From: Candidatus Dojkabacteria bacterium UBA4813
Lineage (GTDB): Bacteria > Patescibacteriota > Dojkabacteria > SC72
Direction of reading: 5' to 3'
DNA: 64,000 nucleotides
Assembly (NCBI GenBank): GCA_002402455.1
Contig: DHFX01000006.1
Location: 20,408-84,407, forward strand
Shown: one piece after another, positions 44,365 through 61,174 of the stretch
How the letters are laid out: each line of letters begins with the position of its first letter
Numbering within the stretch: position 1 is the stretch's first letter
The notes under the pieces: model-generated
Seen by the model: only the letters and a program-made list of their open reading frames with translations
The model's database searches: none
What the model was told of the DNA's origin: nothing
Translations under genes and position numbers: made by a program

Positions 44365-45960
44365 ATGAAGTTAAGCTTTAGAAAGGATTTACATATTGCT
44401 ACTTTAAGATCTGAATCTTCTTGGAATAGATTTAGGGTACAGACGTTGCTTCAAGATACAGAGAGAAAACAGCCATCTATTAATGCTTATCTGGGAGCAA
44501 GATATAGTAGGTCTGCGGATTCCATTTTAGATATAGCCTCTGAGATTATGAGGGAGAGTACGGATGCAGCGGAGAAGTTAGAAAAAATATTCGCAGGTTA
44601 TGGTCACAAATCTGTAGGAGATATGGCAGATCTTTTTGTCTGTTTAGAAAATGTACCAATATATCTTGAAACAAAAATGTTTTATTCTTGTCCGGTAATA
44701 TCTGGGCAAGGTAGGTCTACTAGATACCAGAACTTTCAAGATCCTAACTTCGTCAAAATTCCTAATGAGGTTTGTGATAACCACGAAGTTAGTAGAGAGT
44801 ATGAGAGGATAATGCTAAAGCAGATTAAAGATTACAGGGAGATGCTAGGTCCTACTAGAGATGCCCTTAAAAAATACTTTAGGATAAATGAGGAGAGTAG
44901 TCAGGAGGTTTCTGCTCTAAAGGCAAGGGCATTCGATACTACTAGGTATTTTTTACCGTATGGTTTGAGTACAAGTAGTGCTTATTTAATGTCAGCAAGA
45001 AGTTGGTCTGATGCCATCAGCTTTATGTGTGCAAGTGATACTGTGGTAGAAAATGAGGTTGCAAGTATGCTTCTTAATCTTCTAGGTGAATCTAAACTTA
45101 ATGCAAGGGGTTATATCAGAGAAGCAGATGGACTAATTAGGCATACGGATGCAAATTGTTGTAGAAAAAACTCAACAGAAAGAATTATTGAGTATATGAA
45201 AGAAAGTTTCTCTTCAGAGCAAAAGAGGGAGATTCCTGAGAGTGAAAGTTATTCTGTCAAGGTATCTTATTCTCCCGATTGTATGGAGTCTTTGGTCTCC
45301 CATTATGAATATTTAATAAACCCATTGGGTTCTAAAGAGGAGTTTGAATTCTCTGAGGAGGATCAGGAGAGATTTGGGGAAATAATATTTGAATTACATG
45401 ACCATCATAGCCAGCTTGGGAATATTGGTCAGTCTGGAGCAATAAAGATAGAGGGGTTTGCTTCACTTGGAACGCTAAAAGATCTTAATAGGCATAGGAG
45501 TTTTGAGAGGTTTATTCCTTTTCTACATGAGCAAGTGGATATGGATAAAGAGTTAGACAGGAGGAGTGACCAGTGTTTCTATCTTTGTAATTATTTGGAT
45601 ATAGGGTCTCTTTCTAAGGTTAAGAAGGAGTATATAAAGAGATTATCTGATACGTACGACAGGATAAAGGGTTGGAGGGAGATGGCAAAGCAACATCTTT
45701 CCAAAGAGGTGTGCGATGAATTTACAAAGTATTTGTTACCTCATGCGCATGCAACTAAGTATATATTTTACGGATCGTTCGATGATTTACAATATCTGAT
45801 AAACTTAAGAAGTAGAAATGGTGGACATATCTCTTATAGGGTTTTAGTCTACGAATGGTTAAGGAATCTCAACTATATTGATCCTATTTGGAGACCATTA
45901 TTAAGAAAGATTATAGAGCCAAGAATAGATGACAAGCATCAGTTTGTAGATAGGAGTTAA
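44365..45960 (+). CDS. thyX: flavin-dependent thymidylate synthase-like protein, apparent tandem (double) ThyX domain
   Basis: The first half carries GYGHKSVGDMADLFV...STRYQ, which aligns to the ThyX HGHETPFEH...SGRYS block but lacks the RHR motif. The second half carries NRHRSFERF (RHR) without the S-x-RY block. At 531 aa it is about twice the canonical ThyX length. Confidence 0.5.
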   Translation: MKLSFRKDLHIATLRSESSWNRFRVQTLLQDTERKQPSINAYLGARYSRSADSILDIASEIMRESTDAAEKLEKIFAGYGHKSVGDMADLFVCLENVPIYLETKMFYSCPVISGQGRSTRYQNFQDPNFVKIPNEVCDNHEVSREYERIMLKQIKDYREMLGPTRDALKKYFRINEESSQEVSALKARAFDTTRYFLPYGLSTSSAYLMSARSWSDAISFMCASDTVVENEVASMLLNLLGESKLNARGYIREADGLIRHTDANCCRKNSTERIIEYMKESFSSEQKREIPESESYSVKVSYSPDCMESLVSHYEYLINPLGSKEEFEFSEEDQERFGEIIFELHDHHSQLGNIGQSGAIKIEGFASLGTLKDLNRHRSFERFIPFLHEQVDMDKELDRRSDQCFYLCNYLDIGSLSKVKKEYIKRLSDTYDRIKGWREMAKQHLSKEVCDEFTKYLLPHAHATKYIFYGSFDDLQYLINLRSRNGGHISYRVLVYEWLRNLNYIDPIWRPLLRKIIEPRIDDKHQFVDRS

Positions 45961-46587: not shown

Positions 46588-47730
46588 TTACATTGTTGGA
46601 GGTACGGGAGGGATCTCCTCTGGAGTATTATCTGTATCTTGGTTTTGTTGTGATGTTATTGGTGGCATATGTGGTTGTGGGCGTTCAGGCATGATATTCT
46701 CAGGGGTTTCCTGTTGTGGTGAAACAGAAAATCCTGTAGAGAAAGGAACATTCTGGTTAGGTTGTGGAGCCTGCGGAGTGCTATCTCCCATAGCTGTTGG
46801 AATAGAGGATTCCCTTTGAAGAATTTCCTGCAAATCCTCTTCTTGAGAGGCACTCGAAATTGGGGGGGTATTTTGTTGTGGAGGTGTGTATATGGGTTGT
46901 TCTGGTGTCGGTTGTGTATTTTGACTCATTGGTGTTGGGGGAGTCACTTCTGCTGGTGGTGGTGTGGTCTGTGTCGGTGCACTATTAGGATTATTTACCA
47001 TATCTCTGAGAAATGTTTCACTCTGTTGCTCCGGTTGTATTACGGGAGGAATCTGGTTTTGTTCTGCTTTCTTTACCTTAGGCTGTTTTGGTTCTTTGTC
47101 CTTCCTGAGCAGTAGAACCACTATGCTAATAAGTAAGATTACGGATCCTGCAATTAATATGTATGGTAAGTAGTTAGTTATACTGTCTAGTAAACTTGTT
47201 TTTGTTGTTGTAGTTGGTTGTTCTGTTGTTACAGCTGGAGTCTCCTGTACAGTTGGAGTTTCAGTAGCTGTCGGTTGTGTATCTTCTGTCGTGGATACAG
47301 TATTTGTTTGTTCAAAACTGACGGTTTCTCCCAGAGTAAGGGTACCAAGATCTAAATCGTCGGATTCAACCACTTCAAAAGTTGTAGGGGTATCTCCCGT
47401 GGAGGTAAATGCAATATTAGCCAGTACTCCATTTAGTGCTGTTGCTGAGTCCAATTTACATGTTACCAGTATGGTGTTTACAGTCCCTTGGGATTCGGTA
47501 TAACTTAACTCTGAACAAGCAACATCTCCGTCTGTAACATCCGTTATTTCAACACCGTCTGAATAGCTTATTGGAAGGGTAACACTTTCTAGGGTATCAG
47601 TCTCTGTATCTATCCCAATTGCTACATTCCCAGTTTCACCTTCTCTAAGTGTTATATTTACGGCAGCATATGTTGCGAACGGGAACATAAAGACAATAAA
47701 AGAGACCAAAAGGGAATATATTTTTTTCAT
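46588..47730 (-). CDS. single-pass surface protein: signal peptide, beta-rich ectodomain, Thr/Pro stalk, TM, Pro/Gln-rich cytoplasmic tail
   Basis: MKKIYSLLVSFIVFMFPFATYA signal peptide. A TTEDTQPTATETPTVQETPAVTTEQPTTTT stalk. TM helix LPYILIAGSVILLISIVVLLL. A ~170-aa P/Q/T-rich C-terminus. Confidence 0.5.
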   Translation of the reverse strand: MKKIYSLLVSFIVFMFPFATYAAVNITLREGETGNVAIGIDTETDTLESVTLPISYSDGVEITDVTDGDVACSELSYTESQGTVNTILVTCKLDSATALNGVLANIAFTSTGDTPTTFEVVESDDLDLGTLTLGETVSFEQTNTVSTTEDTQPTATETPTVQETPAVTTEQPTTTTKTSLLDSITNYLPYILIAGSVILLISIVVLLLRKDKEPKQPKVKKAEQNQIPPVIQPEQQSETFLRDMVNNPNSAPTQTTPPPAEVTPPTPMSQNTQPTPEQPIYTPPQQNTPPISSASQEEDLQEILQRESSIPTAMGDSTPQAPQPNQNVPFSTGFSVSPQQETPENIMPERPQPHMPPITSQQNQDTDNTPEEIPPVPPTM

Positions 47731-47860: not shown

Positions 47861-49093
47861 ATGGAATATTCTAATAATTATAACCAAACAAATCACCCTG
47901 TTGTTAATGACAGTCTTGAGGAGAGTTTAATGGAGGTTAAGGCACTTGAGGTAAAGTTATCCTCTACAAATCTTCCGGAAAAGTTGAGAGAAGAGACAAT
48001 GGTGAGGGTGTCGAGGCTTGGAAGAATGTTTAAATTGGGTGGATATAGTGCAGAATTTGAAACAGTCAGTAAATATATAGACTGGATCACAAGGATTCCT
48101 TGGGGTGTAGTAAGTGAAGACAATTTGGATATCCATAGGGCAAGGGAGGTTATGGATGAAACTCATCATGGAATGGAAACTATTAAGGATTTGATTCTGG
48201 ATTATATTGCAACCATGCAATTACAAAGTGTTGGGGGAGTGGAAAGATTAAGAGGAGACGTTATCCCTTCGCAAGTGCAATATCAGAATAGTATCTCCCA
48301 AGTACCCCATAACAGACCAATTGGGCAAGGAGTTCAAATGGGAGTACTAAAAAGTCATGTGGCTAATGCTCCTGTCTTTCTTTTTCTGGGCTTGCAGGGT
48401 GTAGGAAAGACCTCTATTGCAAGGTCTATAGCTCAGTCTATGGGTAGGAAGTTTTCCCGTATATCTTTAGGGGCTATTGGGGATGTTAGAACACTAAGGG
48501 GAGCACCCCGGTATTCTCCGGATGCTGAACCTGGTCAAATAATTAAGTCTTTGGTTAGGTGCGGAACCATGAATCCGGTGATATTATTGGATGAGATAGA
48601 GAAAGCTAGTGGAAATAAAGGACTTCTTAGTGATATTATGGCTGCACTTCTTGAAATATTAGACCCTGAGCAAAACTCTACATTTGTAGATCACTATATT
48701 GATTATCCGGTAGACCTCTCTAATGTCTTCTTCATATGTACAGCGAATAATTTAGGTGGTCTTTCTGCAGCACTATTGGATCGTGTGGAAGTTATTCGTT
48801 TTACCAGTTACTCTGATCAGGAGAAGGAAGTAATTGGTAAGGAATATATCCTACCCAGAGTTCTTGAAGATCTTAACATATCTCCTGAATATATAAGGAT
48901 AGAGGAGGAGGTGTGGCCGTTGATAATTAGACCTGTTGGGTTTGATGCTGGTATTAGACAGTTAGAAAGGAATATTACAACGATTGTAAGAAGTGCAGCT
49001 AGAATGATTGTTGAAGGGAAGCCACTTCCTATCGTCATAAATAGCTCCAACCTAACCGATTATGTCCTAGCTGATCAGGGACCACTAAGTTAG
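47861..49093 (+). CDS. Lon-family AAA+ ATPase module lacking both the N-terminal substrate domain and the S16 peptidase domain
   Basis: It aligns by eye to E. coli Lon residues ~250-600: YIDWITRIPW, DETHHGMETIKDLILDYIA, Walker A GLQGVGKTS, Walker B ILLDEIEK, LDPEQN, LLDRVEVIRF. The ORF stops exactly where the Lon protease domain would begin, and a convergent gene follows. Confidence 0.7.
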   Translation: MEYSNNYNQTNHPVVNDSLEESLMEVKALEVKLSSTNLPEKLREETMVRVSRLGRMFKLGGYSAEFETVSKYIDWITRIPWGVVSEDNLDIHRAREVMDETHHGMETIKDLILDYIATMQLQSVGGVERLRGDVIPSQVQYQNSISQVPHNRPIGQGVQMGVLKSHVANAPVFLFLGLQGVGKTSIARSIAQSMGRKFSRISLGAIGDVRTLRGAPRYSPDAEPGQIIKSLVRCGTMNPVILLDEIEKASGNKGLLSDIMAALLEILDPEQNSTFVDHYIDYPVDLSNVFFICTANNLGGLSAALLDRVEVIRFTSYSDQEKEVIGKEYILPRVLEDLNISPEYIRIEEEVWPLIIRPVGFDAGIRQLERNITTIVRSAARMIVEGKPLPIVINSSNLTDYVLADQGPLS

Positions 49094-49123: not shown

Positions 49124-49381
49124 TTATATTCCTCTAAATGGATTTGAAAGTCTCAGAGAGTCGGCAGCTTTTCTGACTTTAGAGCTCTCCATCCTTCTAG
49201 GAGTAGTTGATCTGTTTTGTTGCTTCTCTTCCGCTTTTGATAATAGGTAAAGGTCCATTCCTTTCTGGATTGGGTCTATCTTTTGAGGATTAACAGCTTC
49301 TGTTACTAGATAATTAGAGACTTCGACATTGTTATTGTTCGTATTAGAGTTGCTCATTCTTATCCTCCGGATAACTTTCAA
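49124..49381 (-). CDS. small Asn-rich hypothetical protein (85 aa), doubtful
   Basis: Overlaps the 3' end of the VirB4 gene by 38 nt in another frame and is low-complexity (NSNTNNNN). It may not be a real gene. Confidence 0.2.
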   Translation of the reverse strand: MKVIRRIRMSNSNTNNNNVEVSNYLVTEAVNPQKIDPIQKGMDLYLLSKAEEKQQNRSTTPRRMESSKVRKAADSLRLSNPFRGI

Positions 49382-51818
49382 TTAAACCTTGTGGAGTCAG
49401 ATGTTCTTTCCCCTTCTGGATATCTTTGCGAGATTGCACTGCCTGACCGGAGAGGGTGTTACTCTTAATTCTATCTAAGATTCCCTTTTCCATTTCGGTT
49501 TTATCAGGACTTAATTGTTCTTCTTGTTCTTTTAATCTCTTTTCTAGTTCTTTTTGGTATTCTGCTCTCTCCATCTGTATGGTGCTTCTTTGTCCCTGTG
49601 TTCGTTTTACAGCTTCTTCAATAATTTCTTCCTGTCTTGCCATTTCTTCTCCATTTTTCATTGGTCTTTGTTCTGTCGGAGGTTCATATATTTCAGATAA
49701 TTGTTCTAAAGTTCTGGTATCTGGCTGACCCTCTCTTGTTTTAAGCTTTTCTAAATCTCTAGGGTCAGAAGTTATTAATTCATGTTCTGATACGCTGGAC
49801 AGTACTTGAATTCCCACGTGGTTTGAGCCTGCAAAGAAGAGTCCTTGTCCTTGATCACAGTTAAGGAGGAAGTTTTTTTCTCCATCTGAGAGATTAAAGA
49901 CCTCTTGTAGTTTTTCTACTGCTGTTGGACTTTGCATCATGAGCATTTGTATGGAAGAGTTTGAAATTATTGCCTTACCCATGTCATTGTTTAGGAAGTC
50001 CGCAACATCCTGAGTTATTGTGGACAGACCAAGGTAGTATTTCCTTGCTCTTTTTGCTATAGAGTACATAAATTTAGCAGAGTCTTCGGACTGCATCATA
50101 TACCAAGCCTCATCTACTATGAGTAGTCTTCTTTTTCTCTCCTTTCTAATCTTAGTCCAAATGAAGTCTAGCATTAGATACATAGCAAGGGGTTTTAATT
50201 CTTCCTGCAGGTCTCTAACACTAAAGACTGTAAATGGATTGTCTATCTCAAAGTTGCTTGCCTCATTGAAAACTCCGGCACCACTACCAATAATATATTT
50301 TTCCAATCTTCTTGCCAGACCATGTGCTTCTGTTTCTGCCATTCCCTTTAAGACTTTATATAAATCTTCAAGGAGTGGAGGAGTTTTAGTTTGAGTGTTA
50401 GGGTCGAATGTTATTCCTTTCTCACGATATGTGAGTATGAGAGCTCGATCCAGAATAGAGCTCTCAATATTGCTAAGTTCTCCAAGCATAACTTTGAAGA
50501 AACCTTGTAAAGCCAAGAGTTTCATTCTTAATTCATCATCTCCTTCTTCTGTCACACCGGAGAGTTCGAAAGGATTCATTTTATTTCCTTTGTCTTGTGA
50601 GAAGGAGATGTAGGCACCATTAACGGCTTTAGCTAAACTCTCGTACTCCCTTTCTGGGTCAATTATTAATATTTCTGTTCCCAACATTAGACTTCTTACG
50701 GCCTCGAGCTTAACGAAATAGCTCTTACCCGCACCGGATTTTGCAAAGACTACTGTGTTAGCATTTTCTAGTTCAAAGCGATCGAAGATTACCAAACTTC
50801 TGTTGTGTAGGTTTAATCCGTACATAATTCCATGATCCATGGTAAGTTCAGATGTAACAAAGGGAAAAGTTGTTGCGAGAGAAGTAGTATCCATATTTCT
50901 AGTTATGTACATACTATCTAGTCCGAGGGGTTGGCAACTTATGAATCCCTGCTCCTGTTGTAAGGTTGCAGGTTTTGCAGTTACGTTTATTGCGGCTAGA
51001 GTTGATGTGACATTCCTGGAAATTCTCTCAAGAGTATCTTTGTCTTTTGCATAGAGGGTTATATACATTGAGAAGTGGAAAAATTTTTCTGTTCCCTCTG
51101 CAATAGAATCCTGTAACTGCTGAGCATCTGCGAGTGCCACTTTTAGTGAAGGGTCTATAACTTTCCTTTCTTCCATTTGAGAATAAAGGGTAGCTTCCAT
51201 CTCTCCGATTTTCTTTTTGAGTTTTTCTAAAATAGTTTTGTTGTCTACCGGATAATAGAAGGTACTGATTCTTAATGAGTGTTCGAAGTTGATTATGGGG
51301 GAGAGCCAATTAGGACCAACAAATCTTGGGTATCCACTCACAAATAATGTTTTGAAGAAGTAATCTCCTATTTGTAAGTTGTTAAAATCCACTTCTAGGT
51401 CTATTGGGGCAATGATGTCTTGTATAGACATATCCGAAGGAATTAATTTCCTAACACTATGTGGGTCGTTATTTACATATCTGGTTTCCCAAGAACTTTC
51501 TTCTTCAGTTGTTTCTTCTTTAGATTTTTTCTTGTTAGAGTGCCCGAGTAGTTCGGTAACGTTATCCATGACATTTGTGATAATATTCCCTTTTTTCTTT
51601 TTTTCCTCCTCTTCTAGAGATTTTGTATCATTGTATCTGTCCTCCTTTCCCTCGGGGATGTTTTTAGCTTCCTCTTTAAGTTTTGAAACTTCCTGTCGGA
51701 ATGAGGCATACTTTTCACCGGTTGTTTTAAACTTTTCGGTTTGCTGTTCCAACTTTTGAGTTGTCTTTGTTTCCAGTTGTTTGTTGTAGTTGTTGTAGTT
51801 ATTATTTATGCCATCCAT
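49344..51818 (-). CDS. virB4: VirB4/TrbE/CagE-family type IV secretion ATPase
   Basis: Walker A FAKSGAGKSYFVK and Walker B LLIVDEAWYMM. A Gram-positive-type VirB4 N-domain block (GDYFFKTLFVSGYPRFVGPNWLSPIINFEHSLRISTFYYPVD). Preceded by a ~120-aa charged low-complexity N-terminal extension. Confidence 0.85.
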   Translation of the reverse strand: MDGINNNYNNYNKQLETKTTQKLEQQTEKFKTTGEKYASFRQEVSKLKEEAKNIPEGKEDRYNDTKSLEEEEKKKKGNIITNVMDNVTELLGHSNKKKSKEETTEEESSWETRYVNNDPHSVRKLIPSDMSIQDIIAPIDLEVDFNNLQIGDYFFKTLFVSGYPRFVGPNWLSPIINFEHSLRISTFYYPVDNKTILEKLKKKIGEMEATLYSQMEERKVIDPSLKVALADAQQLQDSIAEGTEKFFHFSMYITLYAKDKDTLERISRNVTSTLAAINVTAKPATLQQEQGFISCQPLGLDSMYITRNMDTTSLATTFPFVTSELTMDHGIMYGLNLHNRSLVIFDRFELENANTVVFAKSGAGKSYFVKLEAVRSLMLGTEILIIDPEREYESLAKAVNGAYISFSQDKGNKMNPFELSGVTEEGDDELRMKLLALQGFFKVMLGELSNIESSILDRALILTYREKGITFDPNTQTKTPPLLEDLYKVLKGMAETEAHGLARRLEKYIIGSGAGVFNEASNFEIDNPFTVFSVRDLQEELKPLAMYLMLDFIWTKIRKERKRRLLIVDEAWYMMQSEDSAKFMYSIAKRARKYYLGLSTITQDVADFLNNDMGKAIISNSSIQMLMMQSPTAVEKLQEVFNLSDGEKNFLLNCDQGQGLFFAGSNHVGIQVLSSVSEHELITSDPRDLEKLKTREGQPDTRTLEQLSEIYEPPTEQRPMKNGEEMARQEEIIEEAVKRTQGQRSTIQMERAEYQKELEKRLKEQEEQLSPDKTEMEKGILDRIKSNTLSGQAVQSRKDIQKGKEHLTPQGLIESYPEDKNEQL

Positions 51819-52456
51819 TATTCTTCGTCAGGGTTATATATTGTATAGAATTCAGATAATAATTCTTTAGTTGTTAACTGGTGGCCGAAGAGTCCCATTC
51901 TACTAAGTTGCTTAAGAATATGGTCTCTCTTTGGAAATAGGAAGATTTTAGCCTTTTCTACTAATTGGTCCGTTTTCATCTGGTTCATTTGCTCCTGTTC
52001 TTCTTTTTTCTTTTTGGAATCCAATATGTTTGTTCCCGGTATAGGTGCTCCCGGACTGTAAGGAATCACTATAAAGAAGTTCTTATCTAGGACATCATTT
52101 TGAATAATTAGTTTCTGAACAAAATTCGTGTATATATCTAACTGTTTTCTGAGTCCTTCACTCATCTGTTTTCTATCCATGCTGGTCGTTAGGTAATCTA
52201 TATAGTTAGAAATATCTATTCTTTTTGTCCTAATAAGGATTTGAATCCTGAAATTTAGGGAGTTTAGAAGTCCAGCGAATGCATATATTTTATTGTCTTG
52301 TTCGTACTCTGCAAGAAGGTCAAAGTTAATGGAGGAGGTTTGTATGACCATTGCCACACTCCCTTGTGTGGTTATTATTAAATCATCTTGGATATCTTTT
52401 ATCCCTAGATGGTCCTGTGTTGACGCTGTCGCTCTTGCTCTCGCTTTTTTATCCAC
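51818..52456 (-). CDS. hypothetical soluble protein between the PrgI-like and VirB4 genes, possible T4SS accessory or split-off VirB4 N-terminal piece
   Basis: No TM segment and no motif recognised. Its start overlaps the PrgI-like stop and its stop overlaps the virB4 start, which suggests translational coupling. Confidence 0.4.
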   Translation of the reverse strand: MDKKARARATASTQDHLGIKDIQDDLIITTQGSVAMVIQTSSINFDLLAEYEQDNKIYAFAGLLNSLNFRIQILIRTKRIDISNYIDYLTTSMDRKQMSEGLRKQLDIYTNFVQKLIIQNDVLDKNFFIVIPYSPGAPIPGTNILDSKKKKEEQEQMNQMKTDQLVEKAKIFLFPKRDHILKQLSRMGLFGHQLTTKELLSEFYTIYNPDEE

Positions 52457-52457
52457 C

Positions 52458-53279
52458 TTATATATTGTTAATTTTAATTGGCAACTTACTTCTTTTCTCT
52501 GTTACTTCTAGTTGAACTTTTGGAAATTCATATGTAGGATGTTGAAATTCTAACATATATGTACCTGGTTCCCATAATTTATTTGTTAAGAAATAGCCAC
52601 TTTCTCTAGTCTTATTTGCATAGAGGATTTTTCCGTCTGCAGACTTTAAGTATACAATAACATTTGGAATAGGCTTTGAATCTTTTGTAGATAACCATGC
52701 ATTTATATTCCCAGGGAGTTTGTCTGCATTAGCTATGTTGAATTGGTACTTAGATATATTATCCTCAGTAAGAATCATGGTATTAGGAATAAGTCGAGGA
52801 TCTACATTAAGTTCCTCATCTAACATATCTTTAGGGTCATTCTCTTCAGGTTCAATAGGGTTGCCTGTAGCGGGAAGGCTCTCTCCAATAATTTTCTTCT
52901 TTTTAATTTTAACGTCCTTCGGAATTAGTCTACCTTCTTCATCCGGTTTAAGTTCTGGTTTAGCTCCTTTCTCCTTTAATTCTTCATTTAACCATACCCT
53001 TTGTGTTGGATTTGTTATTGCTGTAATATAATTTTTTATGAAGACATCCGCATCTTGCTCATTTATTGGAACCAGACCCAGGAAAGCTCCTAGTCCAGAG
53101 GATACGATAAAGATTGGTATCCCAAGTAAAGCAGGAATAATATTTGAGACCACTAGGTATATCATGATTCCTCCAATACCCAAACCTATTGCTAAGTAGG
53201 CAAATTCCTTAAGAGTAAACTTCGTAAAGAGTTTAAACTCAATATCTAATATATTTTGCGGAATCGCATGTTGTCTCAT
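52458..53279 (-). CDS. PrgI/VirB3-like T4SS membrane protein with a C-terminal beta-sandwich extension
   Basis: The N-terminus IPQNILDIEFKLFTKFTLKEFAYLAIGLGIGGIMIYL plus a second TM helix matches the PrgI-family hairpin pattern from memory. A ~190-aa C-terminal region has carboxypeptidase-regulatory-like strands (VIVYLKSADGKILYANKTRESGYF). Confidence 0.45.
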   Translation of the reverse strand: MRQHAIPQNILDIEFKLFTKFTLKEFAYLAIGLGIGGIMIYLVVSNIIPALLGIPIFIVSSGLGAFLGLVPINEQDADVFIKNYITAITNPTQRVWLNEELKEKGAKPELKPDEEGRLIPKDVKIKKKKIIGESLPATGNPIEPEENDPKDMLDEELNVDPRLIPNTMILTEDNISKYQFNIANADKLPGNINAWLSTKDSKPIPNVIVYLKSADGKILYANKTRESGYFLTNKLWEPGTYMLEFQHPTYEFPKVQLEVTEKRSKLPIKINNI

Positions 53280-53326
53280 ATGTAGGCAGATTTTACTATT
53301 TTCTTCATATAAAGTTTACCAGAATA

Positions 53327-54154
53327 TTGAATATACTTACAATGTTTGGTTCTTTTAAGTTGTATTATAATGATTATATGGTAACGAGGTATGAAAAATT
53401 TAAAGATCTTCTCAAATTCAGAAAAACCATGGATCTGGGTCTTTCTAAAGATAAGGTAAGATATATATGGGGTAGAAGGTTTCTTAGGGAGTTGGAGGGA
53501 GAGGATATTAAGGACGACGGAGATTTAGGCCATGCATCTTTAGAAAAATTGGAAATAGCAAAAAAAGAGCTTCCTAAACTTAAGGTCTTTGATTGGGTCA
53601 GATTTGTGGGAGTATCCGGTTCAGTTGCTGCGGGTTTTGCAAATGAGAGTGATGACATTGATATATTCGTCGTAGTAAGGAATGGGACCATGTGGATTTA
53701 TAGGGCTATTGTCGCGTTTAGAAACGTCTTTCATAATAAGATTCGAGCAAAAAGACATAAAGATGTAAGAAATAAATTGTGTGTGAATTTAATTTGTGAG
53801 GAACGTGGTCTGGAATTTCCGAATGATATTTTTAATATGCATGAGCTTCTCTTCATGATTCCTCTATATAATGAAGAGTATAAAAGATATATTTTTTCTG
53901 TAAATCCGTGGTTGGAAAAGGACTTCTGTGTTAAAAAGGAGTTACTTAAATCAAGAACAATTCCAAAGGAAAGGGTGTTTTTCCCCCTTAGAGTTCTCAA
54001 TTTTCTTGCGTTTGTCGGGCAGTTAATCTTCATGTTTATTTCCGGTCATAATCCTGAGATGAAGAGATTAGTAGAGAATTACAAAAAGGGCAGAATAGAA
54101 TTCTTTGAATATAGTTTTCGTATAGAGAAATTGGAGAAATATCTTAATGGGTAG
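53327..54154 (+). CDS. nucleotidyltransferase-fold protein (Pol-beta superfamily), function unknown
   Basis: GVSGSVAAGFANESDDIDIFVVV matches the hG[GS]x9-13DhD NTase signature, and a later acidic pair (LICEE) is present. The first ~90 aa and the last ~120 aa show no recognisable family. It is the only plus-strand gene between minus-strand blocks. Confidence 0.5.
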   Translation: MNILTMFGSFKLYYNDYMVTRYEKFKDLLKFRKTMDLGLSKDKVRYIWGRRFLRELEGEDIKDDGDLGHASLEKLEIAKKELPKLKVFDWVRFVGVSGSVAAGFANESDDIDIFVVVRNGTMWIYRAIVAFRNVFHNKIRAKRHKDVRNKLCVNLICEERGLEFPNDIFNMHELLFMIPLYNEEYKRYIFSVNPWLEKDFCVKKELLKSRTIPKERVFFPLRVLNFLAFVGQLIFMFISGHNPEMKRLVENYKKGRIEFFEYSFRIEKLEKYLNG

Positions 54155-57056: not shown

Positions 57057-57611
57057 CTATTCGATAGTTATTGTCATGTCGAATAATTCAGAAAACTGAA
57101 CACCGGATAGATTCTCTAAAGCCAGGAAGATAATTAATTTCTCTGAAGGAAGAATACTAATTTTTTGTTCGTATGTCTCTCCTGTATTATCTTGTAGAAG
57201 ATATGGAATTTCTTTCTCCTGTAAATATATTTTTGATCTTGTGTTACTAAGGGTCTGACCCCAGAAAGTGAGAACCTTCTTCTCTTCTGTATTATTTTGT
57301 ATTTCTAGAATTGGCTTTGAGTAGGAGTCTGCACCTCTTTTGCCAATTCTTGCAGAGTAGGAATATTCGGTTTCGTCTATTTTAGTAAGATTCTCCCCAG
57401 AGAATATCTCATGTTGGCCAGCCACCAACCTTATAACTAGTTCATCCTGAGTAGTTACTCCCAATACGTCTATTTTTTTAATTTGCCTAGTTATTGGTGT
57501 TAGATTCATTACGGTTACAATTGGTAATATGAAGAAAAGGGCTAGTAAGCCAAGTGCAAAGGGTTCTAGTATCTGTGAGAATGTCTTTTTAAATTCTTCT
57601 TTTTTCCCCAT
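57057..57611 (-). CDS. hypothetical signal-anchored exported protein
   Basis: N-terminal TM (ILEPFALGLLALFFILPIVTV). No motif. Confidence 0.35.
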   Translation of the reverse strand: MGKKEEFKKTFSQILEPFALGLLALFFILPIVTVMNLTPITRQIKKIDVLGVTTQDELVIRLVAGQHEIFSGENLTKIDETEYSYSARIGKRGADSYSKPILEIQNNTEEKKVLTFWGQTLSNTRSKIYLQEKEIPYLLQDNTGETYEQKISILPSEKLIIFLALENLSGVQFSELFDMTITIE

Positions 57612-57629
57612 TTGGTATCTTTAAGGTGA

Positions 57630-58178
57630 TTAATAATAACTGTTTTCTTTAGGATATATCTTATCAGTTTCTAATTCAAATGTCTTTATTGTTCCCCATA
57701 CAGAAAGGAGTGAAGTTACTCCAGCTCCTACACCTATCCAGGTATATGTTTGACCCTGTAGTGTGTGGGTTATTGCAATAATCGAGGCTATTGTTAGAAA
57801 TGTAGTCCATATGAATATGTGTAAAAATGTTACGTCTTTTCTAGTTATCCATTTTAGAAGATTGAATCTTGTCACCTTTACCAAAGTTCTAGGATTCTGG
57901 AGTGTTGTTTGGTATAGAGAGGTCTTTATTATGAAGTAAAATGTGGGAACTGCTAGAAACAGAAGCATGGTTAGGTTTGAAATAGAGTTGACAAAGAGAG
58001 TGACATTGCTATCTGTAAAAACGATTTGTATGGAGGTGAACCCCTCTATGTCATTTTCAATGAAAAATTCGAGATCATAGATCACTGTTGGCAAGATTAT
58101 CCCGATTGCTTTTCCTGCTATCATTAATATCGCAGGAGCGAGGGATATTTTAAGTGCTTTTTTTAGCAATTTTGACAT
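57630..58178 (-). CDS. hypothetical polytopic membrane protein
   Basis: Four predicted TM helices. The track start overlaps the rpsT stop by 29 nt, so an internal Met (MIAGKAIG) may be the true start. Confidence 0.35.
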   Translation of the reverse strand: MSKLLKKALKISLAPAILMIAGKAIGIILPTVIYDLEFFIENDIEGFTSIQIVFTDSNVTLFVNSISNLTMLLFLAVPTFYFIIKTSLYQTTLQNPRTLVKVTRFNLLKWITRKDVTFLHIFIWTTFLTIASIIAITHTLQGQTYTWIGVGAGVTSLLSVWGTIKTFELETDKIYPKENSYY

Positions 58179-58534: not shown

Positions 58535-58981
58535 TTGTGTTACACTGTTTTTATGAGGAGGAGTAGGTTCTTAAAGTTTTTTTCATTTCTATTTTTTGTA
58601 TTTTCCGTTGCTTCGGCAGTTTCTATTTATGTCGTTTATTACCAGGAAGATACAGAGGATGTTTCTGAGAATGTTCTTGGAGTGAGGAATCCTACCGGAG
58701 TCCCATATATTATTAACCTTCCTCCGTTGGTTATTCAGGAGGGAGAAATGTACGAGTATAGGGTGAGGGCTTTGGATGGCGACACAGTAGCAGAAAATTT
58801 GGAATTGGAATATGTAGAAGGTCCTGAATGGCTCAAGTTAGAAGACTTTGTTCTCAAGGGTGTTGCTCCTAGTAGAAGTAAGGGTACATACAAAATTGTT
58901 TTGAAGGTTTCAGACGGGTATAATAGCTCTACTAAAGAGGATTATATATTAGTAGAGGGGAGTTTAGATAATGCCGAATAA
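58535..58981 (+). CDS. small exported protein with Ig/cadherin-like domain
   Basis: N-terminal hydrophobic anchor, then a beta-rich ~100-aa domain (YEYRVRALDGDTVAENLELEYVEGPEWL...GTYKIVLKVSDGYN). Confidence 0.4.
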   Translation: MCYTVFMRRSRFLKFFSFLFFVFSVASAVSIYVVYYQEDTEDVSENVLGVRNPTGVPYIINLPPLVIQEGEMYEYRVRALDGDTVAENLELEYVEGPEWLKLEDFVLKGVAPSRSKGTYKIVLKVSDGYNSSTKEDYILVEGSLDNAE

Positions 58982-59384
58982 AAAAAAGAAAGTTTACATC
59001 TTATCTGTTATGGCACTTTTGTTTCTAGCCTCTGGTCTTTTTTTGTTGTTTTCAAAGGGTGCTGATGAGTTAGAGGTGAAGGGTATAGCTGAAAAGGATT
59101 GTGTCCCATATAATATTTTTGTTATGCCGGGTGAGAATGATTATTCGGTTGATATATCTTGGAAGACGAGGTCTGAATGTCTAGGTTTTGTACTCTATGG
59201 TCAGAATAGAGGTAATTTAGATATGGTCGGGGTTGATCTTGTGAATAAGAGTAGTGCGAGGGATCATAGTGTGACAATTGATGGTCTTCTTAGGAAAGAG
59301 AGATATTATTTCTTAGTAAATTCACAGGATCAAGCTTATGGAGATAATGGCTCGCCTCTAGAATTTGTTATAGAGGATCTTTAA
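58971..59384 (+). CDS. small exported protein with FN3-like domain
   Basis: N-terminal anchor (VYILSVMALLFLASGLFLLF). The FN3-like strand pattern has a conserved W (DISWKTRSE) and Y (ERYYFLVNS). Overlaps the upstream gene by 11 nt. Confidence 0.4.
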   Translation: MPNKKKKVYILSVMALLFLASGLFLLFSKGADELEVKGIAEKDCVPYNIFVMPGENDYSVDISWKTRSECLGFVLYGQNRGNLDMVGVDLVNKSSARDHSVTIDGLLRKERYYFLVNSQDQAYGDNGSPLEFVIEDL

Positions 59385-61174
59385 GATTTCTTTTTCTTGT
59401 TTTTAGATACTTTTCTTACTAGTTTTGTTTCAAAGTACTTTTTGGGTTTGAATATTCTCCATGAGAACACCTCTGCTTCTTTGTAAGGTTGAGAGTTTAT
59501 TAACTTTACCATCATTGCTTGACCCATAGGTCTTGAGTAAATGTACCAACCGACTAGTACGGTAATAATCCCTAAGAGTATTCTTCCGATTACAGAATCG
59601 AAGATTCCTGTCTCGGGTGTTGTTTCAGAATCTGGTTCTTCAACAACTGGAGGAGTTTCCTCACTTGGTTGAGTACAACTTTGTGCTACATTTAGGACAA
59701 GTTCGGCTCTAAGTGTTTCTGGATCAGTTGGTATCTCTGCAGGTGTTATTACCACTTCATTCTGATTTTCTCCTGTTATTGCATCTTCACCTGCTTCCGA
59801 CATAAAGAGTATTGTTAATGATTGACCACTATTTACAGACCAACCTCCCGTTTTCTCCCAAACTATTTCCTGAGTATCTCCAATGTCTGTTATTGTTACA
59901 AATTCCGTGTCTTCTACTTTAACCCCATTTATCTTTGTCGAATCTGCTACGTATGTAAAACCGAGTGGTAGTTTGTCCTTAACTGAATAGATTATTTGAG
60001 CTGTGGTGCTGTCATTAACTGTTTTTAAAGTAAATTCTGCGACATTATTGGGTGTTACTCTTTCAACACAAGTTACATTCGAGGTCTTAGAAACCCTAAA
60101 TTTAGATTCTTGTGCTTGTTGTAATTCTTCGGAGGTAGGCTCTATTTGTGGGAAGTTAAAGGAGGTACTTACAGTACCTATAACTTCTGTGTCTGATCTG
60201 ACTTCCGCTGTTATTTCTATGTTTCCGACTTTTTTATCAAGTTGAGAAAAATTTAGATCGGTACTGAAGTTTTCACTATTATAAAGATCTTGCTCCAGTA
60301 TGGATATCTCACCCTTAGCACTATCTATTGTAAAACCATCTGTCATTGAAAGATCACCAGCCTCTGAATCCTCTAGTTTAAAGGAGAATCTTATTGTTAA
60401 TTGTGTACTATCTTCAATGTTTCCGATTCCTATTTTAATTGTAGAAACTTTGTAAGTGTCTTCAGCCTTTCTAGTTTGGACTTGTATGCTACTAACACTT
60501 GCAGAAGTTGTTTGTTCCACCTCTATAAGTCTTCTACAGATAGGGGAGTTTATTTGATTTGCACTGGCATCTGACGCTGTTGCAAAGATCTCTATGGTTG
60601 AGGTATCTAATTCGGTGTATGTTTTTGTTATGGTTAAGGAGTCTGGGGATATCGAGTCCGGTTGCACCTCTTGATTATTGATTACAAATTTGTGGTCCGT
60701 ATAGACATCGTCGAATTTCGCCTCAATAGTAAGCTCTTTCTCGTTTAGCGGAATTTTCCCTGTAACAATCTTCCCAGAGCTATCCTTTATTGTCATTTCG
60801 GTACATCTGCTATCTTGTACCACTGGTATAGTACAGATCTGGTAGAGGGCTTGCTGTGTTGTGCTGTTCAGTAGATTTGTTGAAAGGTTGTCAACAGAAC
60901 AAGGTGCACTACAAGTTTGGTCGCTAGGGACAGTATTTAATTCGAAGGAAAAACCTCTTCTAGGATCTCCACATTCTGGTACAACTTCTGGATCGATGTA
61001 ATAACAGGCACAGGTTGTCTCTGTTACGATTTGTTCTTTTGCTGGTTCTTCAAGGGTATAAAAATAAACTGCTGAGACAATAAGCCCTATGCCTAGAATA
61101 GCGGCGATTATGATTAATAAAGTAGTACTTTTTTTCTTTTCACTTGTGGTGGGAATCCTTCTAACTTCTTCCAT
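59381..61174 (-). CDS. large surface protein with N- and C-terminal TM anchors, Cys-rich module and DUF11-like repeat
   Basis: N-terminal signal anchor, a Cys-rich stretch (TTCACYYIDPEVVPECGDP...CSAPCS) and a DUF11-type motif (KDKLPLGFTYVADSTKINGV). A C-terminal TM helix is followed by a basic tail (KVSKNKKKKS). Confidence 0.5.
   Translation of the reverse strand: MEEVRRIPTTSEKKKSTTLLIIIAAILGIGLIVSAVYFYTLEEPAKEQIVTETTCACYYIDPEVVPECGDPRRGFSFELNTVPSDQTCSAPCSVDNLSTNLLNSTTQQALYQICTIPVVQDSRCTEMTIKDSSGKIVTGKIPLNEKELTIEAKFDDVYTDHKFVINNQEVQPDSISPDSLTITKTYTELDTSTIEIFATASDASANQINSPICRRLIEVEQTTSASVSSIQVQTRKAEDTYKVSTIKIGIGNIEDSTQLTIRFSFKLEDSEAGDLSMTDGFTIDSAKGEISILEQDLYNSENFSTDLNFSQLDKKVGNIEITAEVRSDTEVIGTVSTSFNFPQIEPTSEELQQAQESKFRVSKTSNVTCVERVTPNNVAEFTLKTVNDSTTAQIIYSVKDKLPLGFTYVADSTKINGVKVEDTEFVTITDIGDTQEIVWEKTGGWSVNSGQSLTILFMSEAGEDAITGENQNEVVITPAEIPTDPETLRAELVLNVAQSCTQPSEETPPVVEEPDSETTPETGIFDSVIGRILLGIITVLVGWYIYSRPMGQAMMVKLINSQPYKEAEVFSWRIFKPKKYFETKLVRKVSKNKKKKS

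What the first reader, a model, noticed from the sequence alone, without database searches (positions are those of the whole stretch)
49124..53279. Minimal type IV secretion-like cluster (PrgI-like, unknown 212-aa protein, VirB4) with no VirB6/VirD4/relaxase nearby
Three to four tightly coupled minus-strand genes encode a VirB3/PrgI-like membrane hairpin, a soluble unknown and a VirB4 ATPase. No coupling protein, relaxase, VirB6-like channel or integrase is present within ~5 kb on either side. Such stripped-down VirB4 systems resemble DNA-uptake or pilus-like machines (CPR T4SS-like or archaeal Ced/Ted-type) rather than conjugation modules. This is the most system-like accessory block in the window.
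Basis: partly seen in the sequence, partly recalled or inferred. Interest (0 to 1): 0.6.

Follow-up and report, generated by a model that had tools for sequence, protein, structure and literature searches.

The report
Patescibacterial type IV secretion core operon
This is a real, strongly conserved four-gene operon encoding the ATPase core of the chromosomal type IV secretion system already described in ultra-small Patescibacteria (CPR), here in a Dojkabacteria genome, so it is a confirmed member of a known system rather than a new one.

Summary
On the minus strand at 49124-53279 lie four translationally coupled genes:
- a PrgI/VirB3-like membrane hairpin (273 aa);
- the "unknown" 212-aa protein;
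- a VirB4 ATPase (824 aa, NCBIfam CD1110 family, above the curated cutoff);
- a small conserved protein whose true start is 49357 (77 aa).

No relaxase, VirD4, VirB6, pilin or integrase was detected in the 64-kb window or within 10 kb beyond either end.

The window is a Candidatus Dojkabacteria (WS6, Patescibacteria) chromosome. The cluster and about 22 kb of housekeeping flanks are syntenic in most of the roughly 45 long loci among 80 related species' loci. dN/dS is 0.01-0.14, so this is vertical core genome, not a mobile element.

This matches the published Patescibacteria T4SS (VirB4 + TrsD + VirB3, no relaxase; essential in Southlakia epibionticum). The Ced/Ted alternative fails.

Lineage details that the papers read here do not mention:
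- a transthyretin-like domain on PrgI;
- the small protein with an invariant C-terminal NPF[KR]G motif;
- no channel or pilin genes nearby.

Interest is low to moderate.

The parts
52458..53279 (-). PrgI/VirB3-like membrane anchor (273 aa). It has a TM hairpin at about 23-44 and 50-69, conserved helices at 74-104, a conserved basic motif (KP..KP...G.L..K...KKIIG, about 107-132), a variable acidic linker (about 133-165), and a C-terminal transthyretin/CnaB-like beta-sandwich (166-273).
   Evidence: Pfam PrgI 30.1 bits, above the gathering score of 27; sub-threshold CarboxypepD_reg, EMC7 and SdrD_B hits on residues 199-265. AF2 model m3375b6589661: hairpin and beta-sandwich at pLDDT about 90, residues 126-164 disordered. 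Foldseek matches CnaB2, the carboxypeptidase D transthyretin-like domain and SdrD at E about 1e-4. Conserved across 33 relatives. Found in 72 of 80 loci.
51818..52456 (-). TrsD-like protein (212 aa): the split-off N-terminal domain of VirB4. No TM segment predicted.
49344..51818 (-). VirB4 ATPase (824 aa). Residues 1-125 are variable and charged. The conserved core spans about 130-690, with Walker A G362-x-G364-K365-S366 and Walker B D569-E570. The C-terminal tail is variable and ends in a conserved H806-x-TPQG811 motif.
   Evidence: NF045971 393.5 bits, above the cutoff of 325; Pfam P-loop_TraG 6e-27, AAA_10, DUF87, TraC_F_IV. The profile hits PDB 4AG5, a VirB4 C-terminal domain, at E 1.8e-60. 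Invariant motif residues come from 29 orthologs. dN/dS 0.025-0.039.
49124..49357 (-). Small conserved protein (77 aa; no TM segment predicted). Motifs are YLVT, DL..L.KAE and an invariant C-terminal NPF[KR]G. It is the fourth gene of the operon. Its role is unknown.
   Evidence: The ATG at 49357 has a GGAGGA 7 nt upstream and overlaps the virB4 stop by 14 nt. Present at the same position in at least 53 loci. Alignment A1 shows invariant D35, L68, N72, P73, F74 and G76. A profile search found 106 clusters; those that carry an organism name are Dojkabacteria or unclassified bacteria, all unnamed hypotheticals with no Pfam domain. P0288 is an identical 77-aa public gene call. dN/dS 0.09-0.13.
53280..53341 (.). 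Short divergent intergenic region between prgI and the nucleotidyltransferase gene. It is the presumed promoter region of the operon (inferred only).
   Evidence: The sequence shows no Shine-Dalgarno before the prgI ATG and a TAAAAT about 13 nt upstream. Promoter-like matches in the region are no more frequent than in shuffles, 13 against 12.4, so this is not evidence of function. The public gene call for the neighbour is 270 aa, which places its start near 53342.

Best explanation
The four genes form one operon. It encodes the cytoplasmic-membrane ATPase module of the Patescibacteria-type type IV secretion system, in a Candidatus Dojkabacteria chromosome.

Proposed mechanism:
- The PrgI/VirB3-like protein inserts as a helical hairpin and docks the motor at the membrane.
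- The 212-aa TrsD-like protein supplies the N-terminal VirB4 domain, which many relatives carry covalently.
- With the 824-aa VirB4 (intact Walker A and B) it reconstitutes a full-length VirB4, which presumably forms the hexameric motor that powers assembly and transport through a T4SS channel or pilus.
- The 77-aa protein is a lineage-specific accessory subunit or substrate of unknown role.
- The module is inherited vertically as core genome and is not part of a conjugative element.
- By analogy with Saccharibacteria, where the homologous system is essential for epibiotic growth, it most likely serves interaction with a host cell rather than plasmid or ICE conjugation. That would mean export of proteins or import of host macromolecules.
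- The channel (VirB6-like), pilin (VirB2-like) and cell-wall hydrolase genes are expected elsewhere in the genome.

Shown here: gene identities, the split-domain relationship, operon coupling, conservation and selection, the chromosomal context, and the absence of detectable partner genes nearby.

Inferred: complex formation, hexameric motor action, what is transported and in which direction, and partner genes lying elsewhere.
For: Identity:
- VirB4 scores above the NCBIfam curated cutoff, with its C-terminal domain matching PDB 4AG5 at E 1.8e-60.
- PrgI scores above the Pfam gathering score.

TrsD as the VirB4 N-terminal domain:
- All 29 orthologs hit the TrsD family and the N-terminal part of the Mbov_0397 VirB4 model.
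- hhalign matches pSK41 TrsD and the Pontibacillus protein upstream of VirB4.
- Sixty of the 150 best VirB4 representatives carry the domain fused. Examples are P0348, a 787-aa 'Patescibacteria group bacterium' protein seen at that length in four cluster members, and P0363 from Colwellbacteria.
- There is no similarity to the part of VirB4 encoded by the 824-aa gene itself. That fits a split rather than a duplication.
- The gene order equals trsC-trsD-trsE of pSK41.

Operon: 1-nt gap, 1-nt overlap and 14-nt overlap at the three junctions.

Taxon and vertical inheritance:
- VirB4 is 57-90% identical in 80 loci, most titled Dojkabacteria or WS6 and many generically as uncultured Saccharibacteria.
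- The roughly 22-kb order holA...LepA-RecF-NTase | PrgI-TrsD-VirB4-orf77 | Lon-AAA...dcd-thyX-glyA-folD is kept in most long loci, with lineage-specific insertions or losses in some.
- dN/dS is 0.01-0.14 for all four genes.

Clade: NJ bipartition support is 100% for Dojkabacteria. It is 90% for Dojkabacteria plus CPR-labelled sequences against all labelled non-CPR VirB4s. Core identity is 45-56% to CPR and 26-39% to non-CPR sequences.

Literature:
- PMC12102498 reports VirB4, TrsD and VirB3 adjacent, with relaxase absent, in 18 of 20 Patescibacteria classes. Its dataset includes class Dojkabacteria, and the preprint names Dojkabacteria.
- PMC10633639 reports that the T4SS genes are essential in Southlakia epibionticum.
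Against: - No VirB6, VirB2-like pilin, VirB8 or VirB1-like hydrolase was found in the window, in 10 kb beyond each end, or in the syntenic block of related species. 'Partners are elsewhere' is therefore an assumption.
- TrsD scores far below NCBIfam's curated cutoff, 25.8 against 200 bits.
- The clade test is a small NJ tree in which only two non-Dojkabacteria CPR sequences carry taxon names.
- No experiment exists for any Dojkabacteria, and no cultured representative was encountered in the literature read here.
- The direction and nature of transport are unknown even in Saccharibacteria.
- The cluster is not near dnaA or dnaN, unlike many published CPR loci.
Confidence: 0.82

Rival explanations
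1. A genuinely minimal machine. Dojkabacteria would run only VirB3-TrsD-VirB4 plus the 77-aa protein, without a VirB6 channel or VirB2 pilus. The ATPase module would work with another envelope structure, such as the type IV pilus, a Sec-dependent surface protein, or the neighbouring conserved membrane and surface proteins.
For: No channel, pilin or hydrolase gene was detected within 64 kb plus 20 kb, or in the conserved 22-kb block of related species. PMC12102498 notes that VirB6 is scarce or absent in some classes. Conserved unassigned membrane and surface proteins lie in the same syntenic block. Type IV pilus assembly genes sit at the window's left edge.
Against: No VirB4-dependent system encountered here works without a polytopic channel subunit. 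Absence by profile search is weak for fast-evolving CPR membrane proteins. The nearest non-Dojkabacteria CPR locus (L084) and Pontibacillus keep a large M23 hydrolase and other genes next to virB4. The rest of the genome could not be searched here.
Confidence: 0.1
2. A decayed remnant of an integrated conjugative element of the monoderm (MPF_FATA) type that has lost its relaxase, coupling protein and channel genes and is no longer functional.
For: VirB4 belongs to the conjugative CD1110 family. The gene order equals the trsC-trsD-trsE core of pSK41. The other conjugation genes are missing.
Against: All four genes are under strong purifying selection, with dN/dS 0.01-0.14. The Walker motifs are invariant. 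The cluster keeps the same position between housekeeping genes in most of the long loci, at VirB4 identity 57-90%. No integrase, repeats or composition shift were seen; GC is 0.34-0.39 here as in the flanks.
Confidence: 0.03
3. A DNA-import machine of the archaeal Ced/Ted type.
For: VirB4-family ATPases drive DNA import in Sulfolobales, as cited in PMC12102498. Import of host nucleic acids has been proposed for CPR T4SS.
Against: The CedB model scores 58.9 bits against a cutoff of 700, and CedD scores 19 bits against 600. No CedA-like genes were seen, and the closest relatives are bacterial monoderm VirB4s. In Southlakia the comEC mutation that abolishes DNA uptake did not affect viability, while the T4SS genes are essential.
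Confidence: 0.04

Closest known systems
Patescibacteria-clade T4SS (Quinonero-Coronel et al. 2025, PMC12102498; Southlakia epibionticum SEML1_0006-0019, Wang et al. 2023, PMC10633639)
   Same: Chromosomal location. VirB4 sits in a CPR-specific branch next to MPF_FATA. TrsD and PrgI/VirB3 lie adjacent to virB4. There is no relaxase and no nearby coupling protein. The host is a Patescibacteria class (Dojkabacteria) that is covered by that study's dataset.
   Different: No VirB2-like pilin array, VirB6 or hydrolase within 20 CDS. The locus is not near dnaA or dnaN. PrgI carries a C-terminal transthyretin-like domain. An extra 77-aa NPF[KR]G protein follows virB4. The papers read here mention neither of the last two.
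pGO1/pSK41 trs conjugation operon of Staphylococcus (MPF_FATA, TrsC-TrsD-TrsE)
   Same: Same gene order: VirB3-like, TrsD, VirB4. TrsD is homologous over nearly its full length (hhalign E 3.7e-6).
   Different: pSK41 continues with TrsF and TrsL (VirB6-like), a CHAP hydrolase, the VirD4-like TrsK and relaxases, on a plasmid. None of these is present here. VirB4 core identity is only 26%.
R388 TrwM/TrwK (VirB3/VirB4) inner-membrane complex (PDB 7O41-7O43, 8RTB, 8RTD)
   Same: TrwK is the best structural match of the TrsD model by two methods. The VirB3 hairpin plus VirB4 motor logic is the same.
   Different: TrwK is a single chain. Here its N-terminal domain is a separate polypeptide. R388 is a diderm conjugative system with outer-membrane core and pilus genes.
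Full-length CD1110 / Mbov_0397-type VirB4 with a fused N-terminal domain (Clostridium, Mycoplasma ICE, many CPR)
   Same: TrsD aligns to the N-terminal roughly 200 residues: model positions 99-233 of NF045975, and weakly to residues 24-200 of the C. botulinum pCDC3875 VirB4 (E 0.003). Sixty of 150 relatives are fused.
   Different: In Dojkabacteria the domain is a separate gene joined by a TAATG overlap, and VirB4 starts with a roughly 125-residue disordered stretch.
Archaeal Ced DNA-import system (CedA/CedB)
   Same: Uses a VirB4/HerA-type ATPase without a relaxase.
   Different: The CedB and CedD models are far below threshold. No CedA was seen. The lineage and partners differ.

Membership tests
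Patescibacteria-clade T4SS (PMC12102498) | VirB4 belongs to the Patescibacteria-specific VirB4 clade nested in MPF_FATA | tested here: met
   By proxy. In an NJ tree on 558 columns, 90% bipartition support separates Dojkabacteria, P0348 (Patescibacteria group) and P0363 (Colwellbacteria) from all labelled non-CPR VirB4s. Core identity is 45-56% against 26-39%. A full ML tree with the published reference set was not run.
Patescibacteria-clade T4SS (PMC12102498) | TrsD homologue encoded next to virB4 | tested here: met
   The gene is immediately upstream with a TAATG overlap.
Patescibacteria-clade T4SS (PMC12102498) | VirB3/PrgI homologue encoded next to virB4 | tested here: met
   Pfam PrgI scores 30.1 bits, above the gathering score of 27. 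The gene is the first of the operon.
Patescibacteria-clade T4SS (PMC12102498) | Chromosomal, in a Patescibacteria genome, with no relaxase near virB4 | tested here: met
   Dojkabacteria assignment. Housekeeping flanks with no relaxase, T4CP or integrase in 64 kb plus 10 kb each side.
Patescibacteria-clade T4SS (PMC12102498) | VirB2-like pilin genes and/or VirB6 near virB4 (frequent but not universal in the published set) | tested here: not met
   No Pfam or NCBIfam hit in the window. hhalign of neighbouring unassigned membrane proteins against pilin, VirB6 and Trs references gave nothing above 20% probability. The rest of the genome was not searchable.
Patescibacteria-clade T4SS (PMC12102498) | Location near the replication origin (dnaA/dnaN), reported for several classes | tested here: not met
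   No dnaA or dnaN in the window or 10 kb beyond. The related CPR locus L084 does have dnaN and dnaA 4 kb away.
Conjugative MPF_FATA T4SS (pGO1/pSK41, pCF10, CTn2 types) | VirB4 of the monoderm CD1110 type with a VirB3-like partner | tested here: met
   NF045971 scores 393.5 bits, above the cutoff of 325. PrgI is present.
Conjugative MPF_FATA T4SS (pGO1/pSK41, pCF10, CTn2 types) | Coupling protein (VirD4/TcpA) and relaxase with the locus, on a mobile element | tested here: not met
   None was detected. The context is conserved housekeeping chromosome in most of the long related loci.
Conjugative MPF_FATA T4SS (pGO1/pSK41, pCF10, CTn2 types) | VirB6-like channel and VirB1-like cell-wall hydrolase in the operon | tested here: not met
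   Absent here. Present in pSK41, C. botulinum pCDC3875 and Pontibacillus.
NCBIfam NF041427 TrsD/TraD family (the 212-aa protein) | Score at or above the curated cutoff of 200 bits | tested here: not met
   The score is 25.8 bits, E 8e-6. It is a distant homologue: hhalign to pSK41 TrsD gives 87% probability over 180 columns. It is not a curated family member.
VirB4 N-terminal domain (the 212-aa protein) | Fold and sequence correspond to the N-terminal part of full-length VirB4 | tested here: met
Archaeal Ced/Ted DNA import | CedB-type ATPase at equivalog level, with CedA-type membrane partners | tested here: not met
   CedB scores 58.9 bits against 700. CedD scores 19.3 against 600. No CedA-like hit was found.

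The most novel reading that the evidence does not exclude
Dojkabacteria may use a truly reduced VirB4 machine: a VirB3 with a transthyretin-like domain, a split VirB4, and a lineage-specific 77-aa NPF[KR]G protein. It would lack any VirB6 channel or VirB2 pilus. The ATPase module would have been re-wired to another envelope apparatus, with the small protein acting as its adaptor or substrate.
Probability: 0.1. Interest if true: 0.6.

Novelty: already known. Interest (0 to 1): 0.25.

Why it matters
The homologous system is one of the few envelope machines shown to be essential for the epibiotic life of a cultivated patescibacterium, and its substrate is still unknown. This locus adds no new kind of system.

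It does show that the ATPase core is kept under strong purifying selection at a fixed chromosomal site throughout Dojkabacteria. It also gives a concrete reading of TrsD, which PMC12102498 calls the most abundant T4SS component in the phylum and says has no assigned function. Here TrsD is the detachable N-terminal domain of VirB4, fused in many relatives.

Two further features could guide structural or interaction studies of how the motor is anchored and regulated: the extra domain on VirB3 and the small NPF[KR]G protein. Neither has a predicted role.

Tried and rejected
- **TrsD as an internal paralogue of the neighbouring VirB4.** hhalign of A2 against A3 found nothing. I read this as a split, not a duplication.
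- **TrsD profile against PDB sequences.** No hit, even at E 10. Only the fold comparison worked.
- **Structure prediction of TrsD with locus-derived orthologs.** I redid it with fused VirB4 relatives as the alignment.
- **Small ORF against the 92-aa ORF after virB4 in C. botulinum pCDC3875.** No similarity. NCBIfam and Pfam also gave nothing.
- **Neighbouring unassigned proteins as hidden T4SS parts.** I tested 57057-58178, 58535-59384, 59381-61174, 46588-47730 and the nucleotidyltransferase gene. NCBIfam found none. hhalign against Pontibacillus, pSK41, C. botulinum and CPR L084 cluster proteins gave nothing above 20% probability. This is a weak negative, because the templates were single sequences.
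- **Insertions between virB4 and the Lon-like gene in deeper Dojkabacteria (L069, L071).** They hold an ABC transporter, or GalE plus an ABC-F protein, not T4SS genes.
- **Taxon names for unlabelled VirB4 representatives.** The cluster look-ups gave almost no organism names, so the tree has few labelled CPR tips.
- **First tree attempts.** One timed out, two failed with script errors (in both the window sequence was missing or empty), and one used a support routine unsuited to unrooted trees. Only the bipartition count is used.
- **Promoter and terminator scan.** Matches were no more frequent than in shuffles.
- **Supplementary Table S3 of PMC12102498.** It is truncated before the Dojkabacteria entries, so that study's component calls for this class could not be read.
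- **tRNA and Rfam scans of the window.** Both were empty.

Full report
**What is there**

The minus strand between 49124 and 53279 carries four consecutive ORFs.

- The first, 52458-53279 (273 aa), matches Pfam PrgI above the gathering score: 30.1 against 27 bits, residues 6-95.
- The third, 49344-51818 (824 aa), is a VirB4 ATPase.
  - It matches NCBIfam NF045971, 'VirB4-like conjugal transfer ATPase, CD1110 family', at 393.5 bits against a curated cutoff of 325.
  - It also matches Pfam P-loop_TraG, AAA_10, DUF87 and TraC_F_IV.
  - A profile of 29 orthologs hits the solved VirB4 C-terminal domain 4AG5 at E 1.8e-60.
  - Walker A (G362, G364, K365, S366) and Walker B (D569, E570) are invariant.
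- The junctions show translational coupling.
  - The PrgI stop is followed by one base and then the GTG of the 212-aa gene.
  - That gene and virB4 overlap as TAATG.
  - The last ORF overlaps the virB4 stop.
- The last ORF starts at the ATG at 49357, not at the TTG at 49381. This ATG has a GGAGGA 7 nt upstream and gives a 77-aa product. An identical 77-aa gene call exists in public data (P0288).

**Organism and context**

The VirB4 is 90% identical to proteins of Candidatus Dojkabacteria (candidate division WS6) metagenome-assembled genomes. It is 57-90% identical to the VirB4 in 80 loci from distinct species, most of them titled Dojkabacteria or WS6 and many generically as uncultured Saccharibacteria. 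P0121 and P0288 are 100% identical to the window's PrgI-like and small proteins and lie on an 85-kb public contig.

The rest of the window is housekeeping. It includes LeuRS, MetRS, sigma-70, DnaG, FtsK, RpoB, S12/S7, HrcA-GrpE-DnaK, MurJ, GroEL, FolD, GlyA, ThyX, Dcd, RecF, LepA, S20 and HolA.

In most of the roughly 45 long loci among the 80, the block is kept in the same order and orientation. Some lineages show insertions or losses. The order is: holA ... S20 - two small membrane proteins - LepA - RecF - nucleotidyltransferase | PrgI - 212 aa - VirB4 - small ORF | Lon-like AAA ... dcd - thyX - glyA - folD - ABC.

Against the three closest species, dN/dS is:

| Gene | dN/dS |
|---|---|
| PrgI | 0.08-0.14 |
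| 212-aa protein | 0.013-0.02 |
| VirB4 | 0.025-0.039 |
| small ORF | 0.09-0.13 |

dS is near saturation, so these values are only qualitative. GC content does not differ from the flanks. The cluster is therefore vertically inherited core genome, not a mobile element or a decaying remnant.

**Absence of partner genes**

I found no relaxase, VirD4/TcpA coupling protein, VirB6, VirB2-like pilin, VirB8, VirB1-like hydrolase or integrase among the window's large ORFs that I scanned.

The only FtsK/HerA-type ATPase besides VirB4 is a canonical FtsK with 4TM, alpha and gamma domains.

Public contigs carrying identical copies of the window's end genes extend 10 kb further on each side and again hold only housekeeping genes. 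On one side these are YceG, RuvX, AlaRS, a solute-binding protein, sortase, DnaJ and NusA. On the other they are LeuRS, RNase J and PilM.

Unassigned membrane and surface proteins of the syntenic block gave no profile-profile similarity to pilin, VirB6 or Trs proteins from four reference clusters. That is a weak negative.

**The 'unknown' 212-aa protein**

- All 29 Dojkabacteria orthologs match two NCBIfam models at E<=1e-3: the TrsD/TraD family, and the N-terminal part (positions 99-233 of 894) of the Mbov_0397 full-length VirB4 model. Both scores are far below the curated cutoffs.
- Profile comparison with pSK41 TrsD gives 87% probability, E 3.7e-6, over 180 columns.
- Comparison with the protein directly upstream of VirB4 in a Pontibacillus megaplasmid gives 99.6%, E 2.9e-24.
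- The protein shows no similarity to the neighbouring 824-aa VirB4.
- Of the 150 best-scoring VirB4 representatives from a 1.8-billion-protein library, 60 carry this domain fused to the N-terminus of the VirB4 core.
  - P0348 is a 787-aa 'Patescibacteria group bacterium' protein. Four members of its cluster have this length, and hhalign gives 99.95%, E 2.9e-38.
  - P0363 is from Candidatus Colwellbacteria.
- An AlphaFold2 model built with these fused relatives is confident: pLDDT 88.3, pTM 0.79.
- Its 14 best Foldseek matches in the PDB are all TrwK/VirB4 chains of the R388 system. The next hit drops to probability 0.23.

The 212-aa protein is therefore the split-off N-terminal domain of VirB4. 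[quoted passage not shown]

The order VirB3-like, TrsD, VirB4 is the same as trsC-trsD-trsE of the staphylococcal conjugative plasmid pSK41.

**Placement of VirB4**

On 558 well-aligned core columns, the window's VirB4 compares as follows:

| Compared with | Core identity |
|---|---|
| Labelled and unlabelled CPR-type relatives | 45-56% |
| Pontibacillus, Streptomyces, Embleya | 37-39% |
| Plasmid VirB4s of Clostridium, Bacillus, Enterococcus, Lacticaseibacillus, Staphylococcus | 26-31% |

An NJ tree with 200 bootstrap replicates, counted as bipartitions, gives:

- 100% support for Dojkabacteria;
- 100% for Dojkabacteria plus P0347, P0348, P0353 and P0354;
- 90% for the split that separates these, the Colwellbacteria sequence and four unlabelled relatives from all labelled non-CPR sequences.

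This agrees with the published monophyletic Patescibacteria VirB4 clade next to MPF_FATA. It is a small proxy test, not a replacement for that phylogeny.

The archaeal CedB and CedD models score 58.9 and 19 bits against cutoffs of 700 and 600. The Ced/Ted reading is not supported.

**Comparison with the literature**

- Quinonero-Coronel et al. 2025 (PMC12102498) found VirB4 in 2,417 of 3,035 Patescibacteria genomes. TrsD was the most abundant partner and VirB3/PrgI was usually adjacent. Relaxases were almost always absent, and the system is chromosomal.
- Their dataset contains class Dojkabacteria genomes scored VirB4-positive. The preprint version lists Dojkabacteria among the lineages with the system.
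- Wang et al. 2023 (PMC10633639) showed by Tn-seq that the T4SS cluster SEML1_0006-0019 of Southlakia epibionticum is essential for epibiotic growth. They noted that it lacks coupling and relaxase proteins and contains pilins.
- A 2025 review (PMC12857230) treats these as a new branch of the T4SS superfamily.
- A 2026 preprint reports T4SS-pilus-like tubes at a parasite-host interface.

The finding is therefore a member of an already described system.

**What is particular here**

1. The locus holds only the ATPase module.
   - The nearest non-Dojkabacteria CPR locus (L084) continues with an 890-aa M23 peptidase and lies next to dnaN and dnaA.
   - Pontibacillus has a pilin-like gene, a 780-aa protein and an M23 peptidase around the same core.
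2. PrgI is extended by a conserved basic motif, a variable acidic linker and a confidently predicted C-terminal beta-sandwich at residues 166-273, pLDDT about 90.
   - The beta-sandwich resembles CnaB2, transthyretin-like carboxypeptidase-regulatory domains and SdrD B domains.
   - The same 273-aa architecture occurs in L084.
   - If the established VirB3 topology applies, this domain is cytoplasmic, which is unusual for the fold. That topology, with both termini in the cytoplasm, is consistent with natural VirB3-VirB4 fusions; it rests on outside knowledge and was not tested here.
3. The 77-aa protein is found at the same position in at least 53 loci.
   - It has an invariant C-terminal NPF[KR]G plus YLVT and DL..L.KAE motifs.
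   - It has no detectable relatives other than the 106 clusters found, whose named members are Dojkabacteria or unclassified bacteria, and it has no family assignment.

The papers read here mention none of these three points. All are incremental.

**Mechanism**

Best-supported reading, with shown and inferred steps marked:

- PrgI anchors the motor through its hairpin. The hairpin is shown; the docking is inferred from VirB3-VirB4 structures.
- TrsD and VirB4, made in fixed proportion through overlapping stop and start codons, assemble into the equivalent of a full-length VirB4. The split and fusion relationship is shown; the complex is inferred.
- The ATPase powers assembly of, or transport through, a channel or pilus whose genes are elsewhere. 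This step is inferred.
- The system serves host interaction rather than conjugation. The absence of a relaxase and coupling protein and the chromosomal core status are shown. The function is inferred from Saccharibacteria.

**Verdict**

Novelty: already known. Interest: about 0.25. The only reading with more interest is that Dojkabacteria truly lack channel and pilin genes, which I put at about 10%.

Noticed in passing
window 44365-45960 (+): ThyX is 531 aa with two Thy1 stretches. It looks like a tandem-duplicated (pseudo-dimeric) flavin-dependent thymidylate synthase. It is conserved in 42 of 80 related loci.
   Followed up: no
window 47861-49093 (+): A Lon-like protein that consists only of the AAA+ module and lid (TIGR00763 positions 255-567 of 795), with no protease domain. 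It is convergent with the T4SS operon and is its neighbour in 70 of 80 loci. In some lineages it is separated from the operon by unrelated insertions.
   Followed up: partly
window 53327-54154 (+): A nucleotidyltransferase-domain protein (NTP_transf_2, 22.9 bits against a cutoff of 21) is transcribed divergently from prgI, only 47-62 bp away. It is a neighbour in 55 of 80 loci and missing in one subclade: L042, L046, L056, L058, L061, L063 and L066.
   Followed up: partly
window 3696-4869 (+) and L088:1934-3166: Type IV pilus assembly genes sit at the left edge of the window. They are a PilN-like protein (192 aa) and a ComGE/GspM-faint protein (204 aa). PilM_2 lies just outside the window.
   Followed up: no
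window 34373-35197 (-): A ComFC-like protein (double zinc ribbon plus phosphoribosyltransferase domain) lies about 14 kb from the T4SS operon. PMC12102498 notes comF near virB4 in class ABY1.
   Followed up: no
window 57057-58178 (-), 58535-59384 (+), 59381-61174 (-), 46588-47730 (-): A set of conserved, unassigned envelope proteins lies in the same syntenic block. They are a 4-TM 182-aa protein, a 1-TM 184-aa protein, two small Ig/fn3-like proteins, a 597-aa protein with a DUF11-type repeat and a C-terminal TM, and a 380-aa protein with a signal peptide, a TM and a Pro/Gln-rich tail. None matched T4SS models.
   Followed up: partly
window 49344-51818 (-), VirB4 residues 1-125 and 690-824: VirB4 has a variable, charged N-terminal stretch where fused relatives have the TrsD domain. 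It also has a variable C-terminal tail that ends in a conserved H806-x-T-P-Q-G811 motif of unknown role.
   Followed up: no
P0348, P0363 and 58 other representatives; L084:7477-9840: TrsD::VirB4 fusion proteins are common among the nearest VirB4 relatives, 60 of 150. The 2025 survey reports no VirB3-VirB4 fusions. In the sections read here it does not mention TrsD-VirB4 fusions.
   Followed up: yes
L081 (Pontibacillus NZ_CP062975), L083 (Streptomyces), L093 (Embleya): The closest non-CPR VirB4s (37-39% core identity) sit on large replicons typed non-mobilizable. The Pontibacillus cluster holds a pilin-like Mbov_0395 gene, a 780-aa protein, a 117-aa protein, TrsD-like, VirB4 and a 1051-aa M23 peptidase, and lies beside flagellar genes. 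Embleya has an extended 349-aa PrgI plus T4CP and relaxase-like genes.
   Followed up: partly
window 6573-9569 (-): A 998-aa protein combines an epimerase-like N-terminus with DUF4012. It is followed by a PEGA-domain protein and a glycosyltransferase-4, a probable envelope polysaccharide locus.
   Followed up: no
window 1-64000: No tRNA gene and no Rfam family at gathering threshold were found in 64 kb. GC skew is strongly positive over plus-strand genes and near zero over minus-strand genes, so it tracks the coding strand.
   Followed up: no
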